The notes beneath the pieces were generated by a model that worked only from the letters and a program-made list of their open reading frames with translations, was not told where the DNA came from and searched no databases. Position numbers and translations under genes: made by a program. 64,000 nucleotides of DNA from OCS116 cluster bacterium AG-390-I16 (GTDB taxonomy: Bacteria > Pseudomonadota > Alphaproteobacteria > MED-G09): contig QCGZ01000002.1 in assembly GCA_003279705.1 (NCBI GenBank), positions 3,620 through 67,619 on the forward strand, given 5' to 3'. This document shows, piece by piece, positions 35,626 through 40,998 of the stretch. Each line of letters begins with the position of its first letter. Position 1 is the stretch's first letter.

Positions 35626-35701
35626 GGGCCCTTAGCTCAGTTGGTAGAGCAGCTGACTTTTAATCAGCTTGTCGCAGGTTCGACCCCTGCAGGGCTCACC
35701 A
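35626..35701 (+). tRNA. tRNA-Lys (anticodon UUU), CCA encoded
   Basis: Hand-folded cloverleaf. Acceptor GGGCCCT/AGGGCTC, D arm GCTC-AGTTGGTA-GAGC, anticodon arm GCTGA-CTTTTAA-TCAGC, variable TTGTC, T arm GCAGG-TTCGACC-CCTGC, discriminator A plus CCA. Confidence 0.93.
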
Positions 35702-35703
35702 AG
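35656..35703 (+). repeat. attL-like core (3' half of tRNA-Lys plus 2 nt)
   Basis: ACTTTTAATCAGCTTGTCGCAGGTTCGACCCCTGCAGGGCTCACCAAG, identical to 37838-37885. Confidence 0.9.
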
Positions 35704-35763
35704 GTATACCGTAGAAAATAGCCATTATTCTTATTTTCACTATTTAACTAAAGCTTTCATTTT

Positions 35764-35794
35764 TAAAAGTTTCCGCAAAGTTTCCGCAAAAAAA
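35764..35794 (+). repeat. 31-bp direct repeat R1 (tandem GTTTCCGCAAA doublet plus A-tract)
   Basis: TAAAAGTTTCCGCAAAGTTTCCGCAAAAAAA, identical to 37686-37716. Confidence 0.9.
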
Positions 35795-35928
35795 TTGCTC
35801 TATCTAAAAATTTAATTAATTTCTTATTTTTTAACTTATTGATTCTTTTAATTAAAAAAAATTACTATGCTCTCTACACAGGGTGTCATATGATATTAAA
35901 TAAGCTTGTCGGTGGTAGAGGGTAAATA

Positions 35929-37674
35929 ATGAATAAAAATCTAATAATAGCGTTCTTAATGGGAACAATTATAACATTACTTGTTGTTAATTATTTACCA
36001 AAATTTGATATTAAAATTGAAGTGACTGAGAAATCTGAAACTTTGAAAAAAGATAAAACAGAAAAAAATGAATTATCTGAGCAAACTTCTATTGTTGATC
36101 GTCTAAAAAGTAAAATTATCCCTGAACCAATTCCTGAAATAACAGCTGATGAATTTTTATTACAAAATTATCCAGATACAAGAATTTATAATTATAGAGA
36201 ATTCTTTAAAGGTGAGCAATCTAAGTATATAAAAAATGGCAAACCAAAAGCTAGAAGAACTCAAACATTATCAAAAAAAGTTGGTGCTGATTTCTTGAAG
36301 GCCCAAGAAGCACTTGCTGAAGAAAAAACAGATGAGTCTCTTAAGATATTAGAAGAACTTTTAAGTAATCAAGAATTAAGTATTTTTGAAAGAGCAACTA
36401 TCTATAGGCTTCAAGGTTATGTCTATGCTGAAAAAGAAGATTATCAGAAATCTATTGAATCTTTACAGCAATCTCTCTCCTATAATGTACTTGAACCTCA
36501 AGCCCAATTAGATCTTCAATTTAGTATAGCTCAACTTTTTCTTGCTATTGATCAATGGGGAAATGGACTTCGTGAAATTAATGATTGGGGTAGAAACTCT
36601 GAATCATTAGGGGTCGATCCTGGTCCATTATTTCATGCCTTACTGTCTCAAATATATTTATACCTTGCATCTGAAACGGAAACGGGATCTTTAGCGGAAA
36701 AGCAATTTTATGAAAAAGCTGCACCACATGCACAAACTGCTATATTAATAGCTTCAAAGCCAAGAGAAAATTGGTATCAAATTTATTTATCAATTCTTTT
36801 ATTTGGTGAGAAGTATGAAGATGCTAGACCAATACTAGAAGAGATGGTTAAAAGATTTCCTGAAAGAGATACTTATAAAAGACAACTCTCAGGATTATAT
36901 TATAAATTAGATGTAAATGACGGATTGGTTCCACCAGAGAAATCATCACAAGAAATTGTTTCAACTCCTGATTATGGCGGTCCTCAATTTGGGAAATTTT
37001 CTTCATCAATTGATGCACATTTACTTCCAATTGTTAAATTTCCTCCTAAATATCCTGATAGAGCGCTGAAACAAAAAATTGAAGGTTGGGTTTTACTTGA
37101 ATTTACAGTTACAGAAACAGGTGAAGTCTTAAATCCTGTTGTAATTGATTCAGACCCACCAGGAATTTTTAATAGATCTGCTTTGAGAACAATAGCTCAA
37201 TGGAAATATAAACCAATAATTGAAGATGGTAAGGCTGTTAAAATAAAAGGTGTTCAACATTTAATTACTTATGAACTAAATGAACCGAAAAAAATTATGA
37301 GAAGACCCGCTCCATCAGGCAATAATGATATAACTAAAGTAGATAGAATAAGCAATAAAGTTTTGAAAGAATATAATGCATCAGAAAACAGTGACGTAAT
37401 AATTAAATCTAGTTTTCCACCTAAATATCCAAGAAGAGCTAAAGACCATGGTGTTGAAGGATGGATTTTAACAGAACATACTGTTACTTCTGATGGAGAT
37501 GTAGTCAATCCAGTTGTAATTGATGCAGACCCACCAGGAATTTTTAATAGATCTGCTATGAGAACAATAGTTCAATGGAAATACTTACCTGCTAAAAAAA
37601 ATGGTAAAGCTGTTGGAAGAACTGGTGTAAGAAATGTAATGACATACACATTAGAAGATAAAAATAAAAAATAG
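35929..37674 (+). CDS. membrane-anchored TPR-like protein with two tandem TonB C-terminal domains
   Basis: 581 aa. N-terminal TM helix, K/E-rich linker and a helical-repeat region. Two TonB_C-like modules follow (PKYPDRALKQKIEGWVLLEFTV...YKP and PKYPRRAKDHGVEGWILTEHTV...YLP). Confidence 0.8.
   Translation: MNKNLIIAFLMGTIITLLVVNYLPKFDIKIEVTEKSETLKKDKTEKNELSEQTSIVDRLKSKIIPEPIPEITADEFLLQNYPDTRIYNYREFFKGEQSKYIKNGKPKARRTQTLSKKVGADFLKAQEALAEEKTDESLKILEELLSNQELSIFERATIYRLQGYVYAEKEDYQKSIESLQQSLSYNVLEPQAQLDLQFSIAQLFLAIDQWGNGLREINDWGRNSESLGVDPGPLFHALLSQIYLYLASETETGSLAEKQFYEKAAPHAQTAILIASKPRENWYQIYLSILLFGEKYEDARPILEEMVKRFPERDTYKRQLSGLYYKLDVNDGLVPPEKSSQEIVSTPDYGGPQFGKFSSSIDAHLLPIVKFPPKYPDRALKQKIEGWVLLEFTVTETGEVLNPVVIDSDPPGIFNRSALRTIAQWKYKPIIEDGKAVKIKGVQHLITYELNEPKKIMRRPAPSGNNDITKVDRISNKVLKEYNASENSDVIIKSSFPPKYPRRAKDHGVEGWILTEHTVTSDGDVVNPVVIDADPPGIFNRSAMRTIVQWKYLPAKKNGKAVGRTGVRNVMTYTLEDKNKK
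37132..37208 (+). repeat. intragenic repeat copy A (TonB_C module 1 core)
   Basis: 77 nt matching 37507-37583 with 4 mismatches, offset exactly 375 nt (125 codons). Confidence 0.85.
37507..37583 (+). repeat. intragenic repeat copy B (TonB_C module 2 core)
   Basis: See copy A. The flanking parts of the two modules are much more diverged at the nucleotide level. Confidence 0.85.
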
Positions 37675-37685
37675 GGTAGAATACC

Positions 37686-37716
37686 TAAAAGTTTCCGCAA
37701 AGTTTCCGCAAAAAAA
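37686..37716 (+). repeat. 31-bp direct repeat R2
   Basis: Identical to R1. It starts 12 nt after the stop codon of the TonB-like gene. Confidence 0.9.
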
Positions 37717-37735
37717 CCTAATGAATAGGTTTTTA
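37711..37735 (+). terminator. AT-rich hairpin terminator after the TonB-like gene
   Basis: AAAAACCTA-ATGAA-TAGGTTTTT. The 5' arm overlaps the A-tract of R2. Confidence 0.4.
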
Positions 37736-37837
37736 AAAGATTTTAAAAATATATAGGTTCTTATAAAATATAAGCAATATAAAGGTTTCTATGTAAATTA
37801 TTGATTTAATTGAGTTATTAAAAATCTATATTTAGTT

Positions 37838-37885
37838 ACTTTTAATCAGCTTGTCGCAGGTTCGACCCCTGCAGGGCTCACCAAG
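37838..37885 (+). repeat. attR-like core, a truncated pseudo-tRNA-Lys (3' half only)
   Basis: Perfect copy of 35656-35703. No 5' acceptor or D arm lies upstream, so it is not a functional tRNA. Confidence 0.9.
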
Positions 37886-38010
37886 TTATAACCGCTTTAT
37901 ACTGCTCCACTTTCCTAGGTCTTCTAATTATTTTTATTGTCAATTATTTATCAAAATTTGATTTTATTATGATATTGTAAAGTGAAATAAATATATATGG
38001 AGTATTTACT

Positions 38011-38202
38011 ATGAATAAAATTATAACATTAAGTTTACTAGTTTTATTAATGTCATTTTCTGGAAATGTTATAGCGCATTGTGGTGATGCAGAAGCTCAT
38101 GCAGCCTCATCTCAAGAACATATTGAAAAAGATAATGCAAATAATAATGATGAAAAAAAAGAGAAAAAATCATATAAAAATAATATGACCAATAGATATT
38201 AG
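38011..38202 (+). CDS. small secreted protein with His/Cys-rich mature N-terminus
   Basis: 63 aa. GGAG lies 8 nt upstream. Signal peptide ends VIA, followed by HCGDAEAHAASSQEH and a K/N-rich tail. Confidence 0.45.
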   Translation: MNKIITLSLLVLLMSFSGNVIAHCGDAEAHAASSQEHIEKDNANNNDEKKEKKSYKNNMTNRY

Positions 38203-39506: not shown

Positions 39507-39529
39507 TTTATTTAAAAAAGGAATTAATT

Positions 39530-40528
39530 ATGAGACTTTTATGCATTTTTATTATTTTTAATATTTTTATATTTAATGAAAGCTTATTTTCAAAAGAACT
39601 TACTGAAAGAGAAAAGTTTGATAATCTTTCCAAAGAAATATCAAATTGGGGAAGGTGGGGAAAAAATGATCAACTTGGTACATTAAATAATATTTCTGAG
39701 TCAAATATAATTAATGCAAAAAAATTAGTTATTGAAGGAAAAACAATTTCTTTATCTAGAAATATGTCAAAAGAAACTAATCCCTTTAATCACGCACCTA
39801 TTAAACATAAACCTTTTATTTTTCCTGCTGATGCCTTTGGAACTGATCCTAAGTTAGCTCAAGAAGGAGCTGGAGATGTTTTTGAGATAGAGTATCATGG
39901 TTACTCACATACTCATATAGATGCAATAAATCATTTTGGTAGAAATGGAAAAATGTATAATGGCTATCCTTTTGAAATAAACTCTAATAATGAATTCGAA
40001 AATTTGGGTGTTGATGAGATAGGAAAATCAGGAGTAATTAGCAGAGGTATTTTAATTGATTTACCAGTTTTTTTTGGAGTTGACTATGTTGAGGCTGGAA
40101 CAATAATTAGAATTGAAGATATTAAAAATTGGGAAAAAAGGAATAATATACAAATTGGCAAAGGAGATATTTTATTACTTAGAACGGGAAGATGGGAACA
40201 ACTTCGTCAAAAGGGCTATTGGGAAATTACAAAAAAAAGTACAGGGTTTCATTATTCTGTAGCCTCTTTTTTAAAGGAAAGAGATGTCGCTGCAATAGGT
40301 TGTGATGGTGTATCAGATGTTTACCCATCGGGTATTAAAAGTAAAAAAGATGCATTACACGAGTTAGTATTAGTGGATTTGGGTATGCCTATTTTTGATA
40401 ATATGGATCTTGATTTATTATCTAAAAATTTAGAAAGATTAAATAGAAAAACATTTATGTTCGTTGCTAATCCTTTAAAAATAAAGGGTGCTACAGGTGC
40501 TCCTATAAACCCAGTTGCAATTTTTTAA
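39530..40528 (+). CDS. putative cyclase (kynurenine formamidase-like) family protein with signal peptide
   Basis: 332 aa with WGKNDQLGTLN and YHGYSHTHIDAINH metal-site-like motifs and a hydrophobic N-terminus. Confidence 0.7.
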   Translation: MRLLCIFIIFNIFIFNESLFSKELTEREKFDNLSKEISNWGRWGKNDQLGTLNNISESNIINAKKLVIEGKTISLSRNMSKETNPFNHAPIKHKPFIFPADAFGTDPKLAQEGAGDVFEIEYHGYSHTHIDAINHFGRNGKMYNGYPFEINSNNEFENLGVDEIGKSGVISRGILIDLPVFFGVDYVEAGTIIRIEDIKNWEKRNNIQIGKGDILLLRTGRWEQLRQKGYWEITKKSTGFHYSVASFLKERDVAAIGCDGVSDVYPSGIKSKKDALHELVLVDLGMPIFDNMDLDLLSKNLERLNRKTFMFVANPLKIKGATGAPINPVAIF

Positions 40529-40530
40529 AA

Positions 40531-40998
40531 TTAAAAAACCCCTGATATTAACCACTTTTCATCATTTTTTATGAACAGGTATGAAGCGCTCCCAGTAAAA
40601 ATTAATGAATTATCTTTTTTGTCGCTCTGAGTGTACTTTACAATTAACAGATAAGTATCTTCACGCATTTTGAATATAGATTTACTTTCAACAGATGTAT
40701 TTATTTCTGTATAATTTCTACCAGTATTAACAAATTTTGATTGAGGGGCTTCTTTTATAAGGTTTTGATAGATAATTTTTATATCTTCTTCACTTTTTGC
40801 AATTTGAACTTCACTTACAAAGCCTTTAAAAAGAGATGGAAAGGAAAATAATTTAGCTAGACTATCCATATCATTTTCAAATAAATGTTTGTAATAAGCG
40901 TTATGATTATCTTCTATTTTTTTAATATCCATTTCATTCGAGTACACATCTTCAATCATTGTTAGAGCAAAAATAATTCCATATATTAAATTCTTCAT
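40531..40998 (-). CDS. secreted NTF2-like fold protein, unknown function
   Basis: 155 aa with signal peptide. The alpha+beta cone-like pattern ends YLFIKNDEKWLISGV. Confidence 0.4.
   Translation of the reverse strand: MKNLIYGIIFALTMIEDVYSNEMDIKKIEDNHNAYYKHLFENDMDSLAKLFSFPSLFKGFVSEVQIAKSEEDIKIIYQNLIKEAPQSKFVNTGRNYTEINTSVESKSIFKMREDTYLLIVKYTQSDKKDNSLIFTGSASYLFIKNDEKWLISGVF

What the first reader, a model, noticed from the sequence alone, without database searches (positions are those of the whole stretch)
35626..37885. tRNA-Lys(UUU) with a perfect 48-bp copy of its 3' half 2.1 kb downstream, bounding a one-gene island with no integrase
Seen in the sequence: the 48 nt from the anticodon loop to 2 nt past the CCA (35656-35703) recur without a mismatch at 37838-37885 in direct orientation. 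Established knowledge: tyrosine-recombinase elements that target tRNA genes (temperate phages, ICEs, genomic islands) leave this attL/attR signature, with the core running from the anticodon loop to the 3' end. What is unusual is that the bounded unique DNA is only about 2134 bp. It encodes a single cargo gene and no integrase, excisionase or replication function. Inference: it is either a non-autonomous element mobilised in trans (CIME-like) or the last remnant of a larger element. Accessory genes continue to the right of the second copy, so it could also be the first unit of a tandem island array at this tRNA.
Basis: partly seen in the sequence, partly recalled or inferred. Interest (0 to 1): 0.7.

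Follow-up and report, generated by a model that had tools for sequence, protein, structure and literature searches.

The report
Integrase-less phage-attP gene cassette at tRNA-Lys
The 2.1-kb segment is a real, recently mobile mini-element: one cargo gene wrapped in a complete copy of a temperate phage's attachment site but lacking an integrase, one of a family of such cassettes that stack up next to tRNA-Lys in marine PS1/OCS116-type alphaproteobacteria and probably borrow the integrase of matching phages.

Summary
tRNA-Lys(UUU) lies at 35626-35701, and its last 48 nt recur perfectly at 37838-37885. Between the copies are 2134 bp with one gene and no recombinase. Precise empty sites exist in close relatives (L049, 97-98% identical flanks; also L008, L052). 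An orthologous cassette occurs in other assemblies, some with two cassettes in tandem.

The segment also holds a second perfect repeat, a tandem GTTTCCGC 8-mer: one copy 60 nt right of the left core, the other 121 nt left of the right core. Joined as a circle, this gives tandem 8-mers, core, tandem 8-mers. That is the attP layout of a family of siphovirus-like temperate phages, where a 450-470 aa tyrosine integrase sits in the position the cassette gives to its cargo. The 8-mer is identical on both arms within an element but differs between elements. It diversifies together with the integrase N-terminus, so I read it as arm-type sites. One integrase (P0044, locus L085) is preceded by exactly the window's 8-mer.

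Best reading: a CIME-like, phage-derived cassette mobilised in trans. Mobilisation itself is inferred, not shown. The host is PS1/OCS116-like, not Pelagibacterales. No integrase was found in the 64-kb window (all ORFs of 170 aa or more scanned).

The parts
35626..35701 (+). tRNA-Lys(UUU), intact. Its 3' part is the attL core.
   Evidence: ARAGORN; Rfam RF00005, 70.9 bits.
35656..35703 (+). Left core copy (attL core, 'R1'), running from the anticodon loop to 2 nt past CCA. The identity shared by all elements starts at the 7-nt anticodon loop CTTTTAA, which I infer to be the crossover region.
   Evidence: Exact 48-mer repeat. In phage L081 the first base differs, so shared identity begins at CTTTTAA.
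35704..35794 (+). P'-arm equivalent: conserved left end GTATACCGTAGAAAATAGCCAT, about 40 variable nt, then the left arm repeat.
   Evidence: Conserved in other cassettes. 86/106 identical to the P' arm upstream of integrase P0044 in L085 (shuffle maximum 73).
35764..35794 (+). R2L: tandem 11-mers (AAAGTTTCCGC x2; 8-mer cores at 35769-35776 and 35780-35787). Putative arm-type integrase-binding sites.
   Evidence: An identical tandem 8-mer lies upstream of integrase P0044 in L085.
35836..35928 (+). Conserved cassette leader: promoter-like TTGATT-18 nt-TACTAT, palindrome TCATATGA, and a Shine-Dalgarno sequence. About 90% conserved in 9 cassettes with unrelated cargo.
   Evidence: The promoter reading is my own; the generic scan did not flag it.
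35929..37674 (+). Cargo gene, 581 aa: N-terminal membrane anchor, TPR region, two TonB C-terminal domains. It is a chimera of host-type TonB-operon genes.
   Evidence: Pfam TonB_C 5.4e-35, 2 stretches. Residues 108-327 are 72% identical to TPR protein P0012. Residues 336-454 (71%) and 482-577 (60%) match the TonB encoded next to P0012.
37675..37837 (+). P-arm equivalent: R2R, a weak hairpin (37712-37734), and a conserved ~100-nt right end ending ...TGTAAATTATTGATTTAATTGAGTTATTAAAAATCTATATTTAGTT.
   Evidence: 91-94% identical to the right ends of cassettes with other cargo (L054, L040 cassette 2, L039, L032). Same layout as phage P arms, though sequence similarity to them is only modest.
37686..37716 (+). 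R2R: the same tandem 11-mers (8-mer cores at 37691-37698 and 37702-37709), 11 nt after the cargo stop codon and 121 nt before the right core.
37838..37885 (+). Right core copy (attR core): the tRNA 3' half without a 5' half.
   Evidence: Rfam gives only a sub-threshold tRNA hit (20.1 bits).
37886..37910 (+). Flank present at empty sites. Its first ~20 nt (TTATAACCGCTTTATACTGC) resemble the start of the L085/L078 phage P' arm (GTATAACCGCAGTATACTGCC), so it is probably an older decayed P' arm.
   Evidence: Borderline over the whole arm (74 identical against a shuffle maximum of 73), so this is suggestive only.

Best explanation
The segment 35704-37837, together with one core copy, is a miniature non-autonomous integrative element. 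It is a single self-contained expression unit (conserved leader, cargo gene, weak hairpin) carried on a complete phage-type attP.

Joining the two ends as a circle gives: tandem GTTTCCGC sites, 121 nt, the 48-52-bp core identical to the tRNA-Lys 3' half, 60 nt, tandem GTTTCCGC sites. A family of temperate siphovirus-like phages has this same attP layout, with a 450-470 aa tyrosine integrase immediately downstream of the second arm. In the cassette the integrase position is occupied by cargo.

Shown here: the repeats; precise empty and occupied alleles in close relatives; arrays of up to two cassettes; the same design in phages next to an integrase; an integrase (P0044) preceded by the same 8-mer as the window cassette; and no recombinase in the cassette or in the 64-kb window.

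Inferred: the cassette entered by Int-mediated attP x attB recombination with crossover in the anticodon loop. The tandem 8-mers are arm-type sites read by the integrase N-terminal domain. Excision and reintegration therefore need a co-resident or infecting phage whose integrase matches the cassette's 8-mer.

How the cassette moves between cells is unknown. A plausible route is Int-mediated attP x attP cointegration into the helper phage genome, followed by separate resolution after lysogeny. Repeated insertion at the tRNA and decay of older units builds the variable island to the right.
For: Repeats and coordinates.

Empty sites: L049 (flanks 97% and 98% identical, sharing a single core copy), L008 and L052. 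A second precise presence/absence case: L070 equals L068 minus exactly cassette 2, with flanks 99.8-99.9% identical.

Family and arrays: 7 of 57 metagenome loci carry 2-3 core copies. Nine distinct complete cassettes of 1.7-2.5 kb have the same modular ends but different cargo.

Phage attP plus integrase: L074 and L075 have no tRNA gene at the core; L074 carries tail and holin genes and an integrase matching PF00589 at 1.8e-9. Further phage contexts: L078-L088.

Arm repeat: identical on both arms in 7 of 7 phages where both arms are seen (L088 in 3 of 4 copies) and in 8 of 9 cassettes, with 14 different 8-mers overall. Exact cassette-phage matches: window = L085/P0044 (GTTTCCGC), L040 cassette 2 = L078/P0043 (GTTGTCCC), L054 cassette 1 = L084/P0042 (GTTTTGCC).

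Integrase N-terminal ~100 alignment columns diverge faster than the rest between integrases with different 8-mers: 79 vs 99%, 75 vs 94%, 77 vs 95%, 73 vs 86%.

No recombinase: every window ORF of 170 aa or more, plus most of 97 aa or more between 35 and 47 kb, has a Pfam assignment or no hit, and none is a recombinase. The cassette cargo proteins I scanned (about 10 of the larger ones) gave none either.
Against: No circular form, no attP junction of this cassette, and no cassette inside a phage genome or viral contig was found. Exact searches of IMG/VR for the 46-mer, the window's arm repeat, and the cassette left end, right end and leader all returned nothing.

The cognate integrase sits on a 2.7-kb contig that begins inside the core, so its P arm and its host are unseen. 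The rest of the window's genome could not be searched.

Binding of the 8-mers by Int is an analogy to lambda-type integrases, not a measurement.

Sequence similarity between the cassette P arm and phage P arms is only modestly above shuffled AT-rich controls.

Loss of one cassette from an array could also occur by homologous recombination between the ~230-bp near-identical junction modules.

One cassette (L044 cassette 1) has different 8-mers at its two ends.
Confidence: 0.75

Rival explanations
1. Dead remnant. A full prophage once integrated at tRNA-Lys and internal deletions removed everything except the att arms and a moron gene. The segment is now fixed and immobile, and the polymorphism seen reflects ancestral variation or homologous deletion.
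For: The backbone is clearly phage-derived. Cassette L032 c1 even keeps the 3' end of the last phage late gene (GTGGATAAGTTTGGAGAATAG) before its arm repeat. Decayed units without a right core are common (L001, L046, L036, L041). No circular form was detected.
Against: At least seven different cargo sets share the same ~80-nt non-phage leader and the same ends at 80-94% identity. That argues for one cassette backbone that spread and exchanged cargo, not independent decays. Both cores are perfect and all four 8-mer copies are intact in the window. Precise gain or loss of single units occurs between contigs 97-99.9% identical.
Confidence: 0.15
2. Movement by homologous recombination only. The cassettes are inserted and lost through RecA-type recombination using the 48-52-bp tRNA repeat and the ~230-bp shared junction modules, after uptake of foreign DNA. 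No site-specific recombinase acts on them today.
For: Adjacent cassettes share near-identical right end plus core modules (233-nt overlap in the L068/L070 comparison). No integrase lies in the window or in any cassette-bearing contig.
Against: This does not explain why both arms, with matched and intact tandem 8-mers at fixed distances from the core, are kept in 8 of 9 cassettes, nor why they match particular phage integrase loci exactly. It also does not explain why identity to the tRNA starts exactly at the anticodon loop.
Confidence: 0.07
3. Assembly artefact: the second copy arises from a mis-join or a duplicated contig end.
For: None found. It remains a formal possibility for any single assembly.
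Against: The same layout, and an orthologous cassette, appear in independent JGI, ENA and TARA assemblies. The internal arm repeats and conserved ends give a coherent biological architecture shared with phages.
Confidence: 0.01

Closest known systems
CIMEs (cis-mobilizable elements) of Streptococcus and other Firmicutes
   Same: By definition they have lost integration and transfer genes but keep attL and attR. They sit in tandem with related elements at the 3' end of a target gene, including tRNA-Lys, and are moved by the recombinase of a related element (definition quoted from PMC5704250).
   Different: CIMEs are described as decayed ICEs or IMEs and travel by accretion with a conjugative element. 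Here the parent is a temperate phage family. The units are far smaller (1.7-2.5 kb) and form a family with a common leader and ends and exchangeable cargo. Each unit is tied to an integrase variant by its arm repeat.
Tycheposons and additive genomic islands of Prochlorococcus (bioRxiv 10.1101/2020.12.28.424599)
   Same: [quoted passage not shown]
   Different: [quoted passage not shown] Many carry replication genes. The cassettes here have neither. Host clade and tRNA also differ.
Lambda-type attP (core flanked by arm-type sites bound by the Int N-terminal domain)
   Same: A core flanked on both arms by short repeated sites at fixed distances, next to the int gene; the integrase carries an extra N-terminal domain. 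This comparison rests on established knowledge of lambda, HK022, P2 and L5 Int, not on a test here.
   Different: The sites are tandem direct 8-mers with 11-bp phasing, identical on both arms. They differ between integrases that are otherwise 83-99% identical, while the core (attB specificity) stays the same.
Phage satellites (PICI, P4-like, PICMI, marine VEIMEs)
   Same: Small elements that exploit a helper phage, integrate site-specifically and are abundant in marine bacteria (PMC9618062 is listed; its details are from my own knowledge).
   Different: As far as I know, described satellites encode their own integrase and some packaging or hijacking functions. These cassettes encode only cargo, and there is no evidence of packaging.
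Integron gene cassettes
   Same: Small, mostly one- to few-gene units without a recombinase, stacked in arrays at one site and moved by a tyrosine recombinase encoded elsewhere.
   Different: There is no IntI, attI or folded attC. The recombination site is a duplex phage attP with arms. Each cassette brings its own promoter-like leader. The array grows at a tRNA gene.

Membership tests
tRNA-targeting tyrosine-recombinase integrative element (attL/attR signature) | Direct repeat of the tRNA 3' part bounding the insert, with the tRNA gene kept intact | tested here: met
   48-nt perfect repeat; tRNA intact.
tRNA-targeting tyrosine-recombinase integrative element (attL/attR signature) | Existence of an unoccupied attB in relatives | tested here: met
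   L049, L008 and L052 join the tRNA directly to the 37886+ flank.
tRNA-targeting tyrosine-recombinase integrative element (attL/attR signature) | A cognate tyrosine recombinase next to a matching attP | tested here: met
   Phage contigs with a matching core plus a PF00589 integrase. L085/P0044 has the window's exact arm repeat and core 3' end. The integrase is not in the element or in the window.
tRNA-targeting tyrosine-recombinase integrative element (attL/attR signature) | Demonstrated excision or integration (circular form, attP junction) | not testable with these tools
   No reads or experiments were available, and no circular-junction contig was seen.
CIME (cis-mobilizable element) | Has lost integration and transfer genes | tested here: met
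   The only ORF of 80 aa or more between the core copies is the cargo gene (short antisense ORFs lie inside it), and it has no recombinase domain.
CIME (cis-mobilizable element) | Retains functional-looking attL and attR | tested here: met
   Perfect cores and intact matched arm repeats at both ends.
CIME (cis-mobilizable element) | Derived from an ICE or IME and mobilised in cis by accretion with a conjugative element | tested here: not met
   The parent architecture is a temperate phage attP. No conjugation genes were seen in any of the ORFs scanned from the loci. It therefore works like a CIME but is not a member in the strict sense.
Tycheposon | Carries its own site-specific integrase (tyrosine or large serine recombinase) | tested here: not met
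   None of the cassette proteins scanned is a recombinase. Definition taken.
Tycheposon | Integrates at an island-associated tRNA, forms tandems separated by partial tRNAs, leaves decayed remnants | tested here: met
Phage satellite (PICI/P4/PICMI type) | Own integrase plus genes for helper exploitation or packaging; found in virions | tested here: not met
   Cargo only. Exact searches of IMG/VR for cassette ends and leader found nothing. These were exact-pattern searches, so the negative is weak.
Integron cassette | attC hairpin site and an IntI/attI platform | tested here: not met
   The recombination site is a tRNA-derived core with arms. No integrase lies adjacent to the array in the window.
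Lambda-type arm-dependent integrase system | Arm-type sites bound by the integrase N-terminal domain and required for recombination | tested here: inconclusive
   The position, phasing and co-diversification with the Int N-terminus fit. Binding and requirement were not measured.

The most novel reading that the evidence does not exclude
A widespread family of minimal 'attP cassettes' exists in marine PS1/OCS116-type bacteria: gene-sized, integrase-less units that parasitise temperate-phage integrases. Each cassette is addressed to one integrase variant by an 8-nt code repeated on both att arms. The phages and cassettes share one attB (tRNA-Lys) but have diversified into many arm-site/N-terminal-domain specificities that may be orthogonal. 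This could be an arms race, or a partitioning, between phages and their hitchhikers. Serial insertion and decay of these cassettes would be the main builder of the variable island at this tRNA.
Probability: 0.5. Interest if true: 0.8.

Novelty: new variant of a known kind. Interest (0 to 1): 0.66.

Why it matters
How streamlined, plasmid-poor marine bacteria gain and lose single genes at tRNA-linked variable islands is still an open question. This locus offers a concrete and testable mechanism: gene-sized cassettes that keep a full phage attachment site and rely on passing phages for the enzyme.

It also identifies uncultured temperate phages whose attP core matches the tRNA-Lys of a clade for which my literature searches returned no phage or integrase reports.

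Finally, it exposes a natural series of closely related integrases that share one chromosomal target but appear to read different arm sequences. Such a series would be useful for studying how arm-site specificity evolves. If the specificities prove orthogonal, it would also be a source of recombination tools.

The cargo in this window is a chimeric TPR-TonB_C-TonB_C protein built from host-type TonB-operon parts. It hints that cassettes trade in envelope and uptake functions, which are also relevant to phage entry.

Tried and rejected
1. Exact 46-mer core in IMG/VR: no hit. Only shortening the query to the 23 nt at the anticodon-loop side found the phage attPs, because those phages differ by 2 nt in the T-arm.

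2. INPHARED phage genomes: blastn of the region returned only generic tRNA hits.

3. Integrase in the window: every ORF of 170 aa or more was scanned in Pfam, and none is a recombinase.

4. The 317-aa minus-strand ORF next to the tRNA in a more distant lineage looked like an integrase by position. It is a CN_hydrolase.

5. Arm repeat as a target-site duplication of a mobile 'junction module'. Rejected: the repeat matches within a cassette, not across a junction (in L040, cassette 1 has GTGCC and cassette 2 has GTCCC).

6. Arm repeat as LTR-like copies regenerated through a copying step. Dropped once the same paired repeats were seen flanking the core in phage attPs next to int.

7. The apparent 4.5-kb cassette in L029 with mismatched repeats resolved into two cassettes, separated by a core copy with 2 mismatches.

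8. Rfam search of 35.3-38.3 kb: only tRNA hits, and no known RNA family in the leader.

9. PADLOC scan of ten cargo proteins: no defence-system hits.

10. Generic promoter/terminator scan: flags neither the leader nor the hairpin after the arm repeat, so those two roles are unsupported by that tool.

11. IMG/VR searches for the cassette left end, right end, leader, window arm repeat and the L085-type P' arm: all empty.

12. Literature searches for PS1 clade with prophage and OCS116 with integrase: nothing relevant.
Full report
**1. Observation**

The window has one tRNA gene, tRNA-Lys(UUU), at 35626-35701 on the + strand (Rfam 70.9 bits). The 48 nt from the last base of the anticodon stem to 2 nt past CCA (35656-35703) recur without mismatch at 37838-37885 in direct orientation. 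None of 100 shuffles gave a match, even with 3 mismatches allowed. Similarity runs on to 53 nt with one mismatch.

The 2134 bp between the copies hold one long ORF, 35929-37674 (581 aa). It has two TonB_C domains and weak TPR hits.

One copy is at 35764-35794, 60 nt right of the left core. The other is at 37686-37716, 121 nt left of the right core and just after the cargo stop codon. Each copy is a tandem pair of 11-mers with the 8-mer core GTTTCCGC. These are the only such tandem 8-mers in the 64 kb.

**2. Context and host**

To the left are housekeeping genes: gyrA, coaD, a cyclophilin, queA and tgt. To the right are small accessory genes: a flavodoxin-like protein, a cyclase, GST, a thioesterase, a SnoaL-like protein, alternative oxidase, MazG and an MFS transporter.

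Every ORF of 170 aa or more in the window was scanned against Pfam, and none is a recombinase or transposase.

The exact 46-mer core occurs in only four species-representative genomes. Two are a PS1-clade SAG and an OCS116 SAG; the other two are alphaproteobacterial MAGs. The two SAGs share queA-tgt-tRNA-Lys synteny with the window at 82-83% nt identity.

**3. The insertion is real and polymorphic**

A metagenome scan with the 46-mer gave 57 loci. Three are precise empty sites.
- L049: left flank 97% and right flank 98% identical to the window, sharing one core copy.
- L008: 92% and 97%.
- L052: 92%.

In each, tRNA-Lys is joined directly to the window's 37886+ flank.

Other contigs (L035, L040, L068-L071) carry an orthologous cassette, with 86% nt identity and a 622-aa ortholog that is 70% identical. 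In L068, L069 and L071 a second, unrelated cassette follows it, giving three core copies. L070 is 99.8-99.9% identical to L068 but lacks exactly that second unit.

This rules out an assembly artefact and shows recent gain or loss of single units.

**4. A cassette family**

Nine distinct complete units bounded by core copies were recovered (W, L015 c1, L029 c1 and c2, L032 c1, L035 c1, L040 c2, L044 c1, L054 c1). They are 1.7-2.5 kb long.

Most share the following layout:
- core;
- a conserved left end (AGRTATAYCSYAGAAAATAGCCAT);
- about 40 variable nt;
- tandem 8-mers;
- an ~80-nt leader, about 90% conserved (TTGATT-18 nt-TACTAT, a TCATATGA palindrome, GGAGG);
- cargo;
- tandem 8-mers;
- a weak hairpin;
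- a conserved ~100-nt right end;
- the next core.

L029 c1 and L032 c1 instead have the L074-phage-type left end and lack this leader.

Cargo differs between units. Examples are the TonB-like protein, a 452-aa protein, a 525-aa protein, and sets of 2-4 small secreted or membrane proteins. A C5 DNA methylase follows the related L001-type (decayed phage P' arm) leader in L030. Most cargo proteins have no Pfam hit and none has a PADLOC hit. None of the cargo proteins I scanned is a recombinase.

Many loci show decayed units that keep only the left end, or the left end plus leader (L001, L046, L036, L041). This is what an island that grows by insertion at the tRNA and erodes distally would look like.

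**5. Source of the architecture**

The exact core, arm repeat, cassette ends and leader are all absent from IMG/VR. The 23 nt at the anticodon-loop side of the core did hit two viral contigs, L074 and L075, at places with no tRNA gene.

L074 encodes a tape-measure-like protein, a tail protein and a holin. Downstream of these late genes it has, in order:
- tandem TGTGTCCC 8-mers;
- about 125 nt;
- the core, with 2 mismatches in the T-arm;
- about 75 nt;
- tandem TGTGTCCC again;
- a 466-aa tyrosine integrase (PF00589, 1.8e-9).

L075 is the same, with AGTTAACC as its 8-mer.

A protein search with the L074 integrase found 19 clusters. Their contigs are phage genomes with the same order: capsid, tail, holin, attP, int, then early genes including an HTH_17 protein. 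Metagenome locus L058 is such an attP with the exact 46-mer core, followed by the integrase N-terminus.

The window cassette, closed into a circle, is therefore a full phage-type attP with the cargo gene where int would be.

**6. The 8-mer is an element-specific arm signature**

Within an element the 8-mer is the same on both arms. This holds in 7 of 7 phages where both arms are visible: L074, L075, L058, L079, L081, L087, and L088 in 3 of 4 copies. It also holds in 8 of 9 cassettes; the exception is L044 c1.

Between elements it differs. Fourteen variants were seen: eleven in the phage loci, plus GTTGTACC, GTTGTGCC and GTGTCGCA, which occur only in cassettes.

Three cassettes match phage integrase loci exactly:

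| Cassette | 8-mer | Phage locus / integrase |
|---|---|---|
| Window | GTTTCCGC | L085 / P0044 |
| L040 c2 | GTTGTCCC | L078 / P0043 |
| L054 c1 | GTTTTGCC | L084 / P0042 |

The window's P' arm is 86/106 identical to the L085 P' arm, against a shuffle maximum of 73.

Integrases with different 8-mers are much more diverged in the first ~100 alignment columns than elsewhere:

| Pair | First ~100 columns | Rest |
|---|---|---|
| P0043 / P0045 | 79% | 99% |
| P0043 / P0044 | 75% | 94% |
| P0046 / P0048 | 77% | 95% |
| L074 / L075 | 73% | 86% |

By analogy with lambda-type integrases (established knowledge, not tested here), I read the 8-mers as arm-type sites bound by the N-terminal domain. On that reading, each cassette is tuned to one integrase variant.

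The identity shared by all elements begins at the 7-nt anticodon loop CTTTTAA; L081 differs at the base before it. I infer this loop to be the overlap region for strand exchange.

**7. Mechanism proposed**

- Shown: the anatomy, the polymorphism, the phage counterpart and the cognate integrase locus.
- Inferred: integration by Int-catalysed attP x attB exchange; excision when a phage with a matching integrase (and its directionality factor) is present; array growth by repeated insertion at the tRNA-proximal core.
- Speculative: cell-to-cell transfer as an attP x attP cointegrate in the helper phage genome.

The flanks found at 'empty' sites also begin like phage P' arms. The window and L049 flank resembles L085/L078. 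The L003-type flank resembles L058 and L074. The L001-type flank resembles L081. So even unoccupied sites carry scars of earlier integrations.

**8. Cargo**

The 581-aa protein has an N-terminal membrane anchor. Residues 108-327 are 72% identical to a 466-aa TPR protein, P0012. That protein is the last gene of a DUF3450-ExbB-ExbB-ExbD-TonB-TPR operon in related metagenomic and MAG contigs. Residues 336-454 (71%) and 482-577 (60%) match the C-terminal domain of that operon's TonB.

It is thus a chimera of host-type TonB-system parts. Its role is untested; it might provide an alternative energy transducer, modulate receptor function, or interfere with phage entry.

**9. Comparison with known systems**

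Functionally the element is closest to a CIME: att sites retained, recombination genes lost, moved by a related element's integrase, and found in tandem at the 3' end of a gene (definition in PMC5704250). It fails the CIME criterion of ICE or IME ancestry and conjugative accretion.

It shares tRNA targeting, partial-tRNA-separated tandems and island building with tycheposons. However, the elements in that study were identified by, and described as carrying, their own integrases. It lacks what defines phage satellites and integron cassettes (see the membership table).

I found no description of these elements or phages.

**10. Verdict**

The element is a new variant of a known kind: a phage-derived, integrase-less attP cassette family with an arm-site code.

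The main gaps are direct evidence of excision or transfer, and of integrase binding to the 8-mers.

Noticed in passing
The only species-representative genomes with the exact tRNA-Lys 3' half are a PS1-clade SAG, an OCS116 SAG and two alphaproteobacterial MAGs. The two SAGs share synteny with the window at 82-83% nt identity.
   Followed up: partly
window 35929-37674: The cargo protein is a chimera: a TPR segment 72% identical to the last gene of a host-type DUF3450-ExbB-ExbB-ExbD-TonB-TPR operon, followed by two copies of that operon's TonB C-terminal domain.
   Followed up: yes
window 35836-35928; same element in L006, L029, L035, L039, L044, L053, L054: An ~80-nt leader is about 90% conserved upstream of unrelated cargo genes. 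It has a promoter-like TTGATT/TACTAT pair and a TCATATGA palindrome just downstream, which could be an operator. There is no Rfam hit, and the generic promoter scan does not flag it.
   Followed up: partly
window 39519-40512: The putative cyclase gene (39530-40528) is a clean ~1-kb presence/absence difference. It is absent from L041, L052 and L055, which are otherwise collinear, and present in another context in L038. No tRNA-derived repeat bounds it.
   Followed up: no
window 40531-40998 (- strand): This 155-aa ORF of unknown function lies 2.6 kb from the tRNA in the window but directly abuts tRNA-Lys in L002, L020, L025, L027, L047 and L060. Gene order within the island is therefore shuffled between relatives.
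   Followed up: no
window 38011-38202: A small 63-aa predicted secreted protein rich in His, Cys and charged residues is conserved to the right of the insertion site in most relatives. It serves as the stable right-hand landmark of the site.
   Followed up: no
L016 12120-13664; L017 (oriented) 1219-2763: In a more distant lineage (flank type AAGTTA...), a 514-aa DUF5906 primase/helicase-like protein and several unknown ORFs follow tRNA-Lys. This may be a different integrative element or satellite at the same tRNA. No integrase is seen within the contig.
   Followed up: partly
L079, L080, L087: Phages of the same family carry a different tRNA-Lys-like core (11-12 mismatches, same CTTTTAA loop) with their own arm 8-mers. 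The family therefore also targets tRNA-Lys of another host lineage.
   Followed up: no
L044 (oriented) 43-2574: This is the one cassette whose left (GTTGTGCC) and right (GTATCCGC) arm repeats differ. It may be a fusion of two units or a recombinant.
   Followed up: no
L045 (oriented) 1441-1920: The end of this metagenome contig carries a high-GC ORF unlike the rest of the AT-rich contig. It is probably a chimeric assembly.
   Followed up: no
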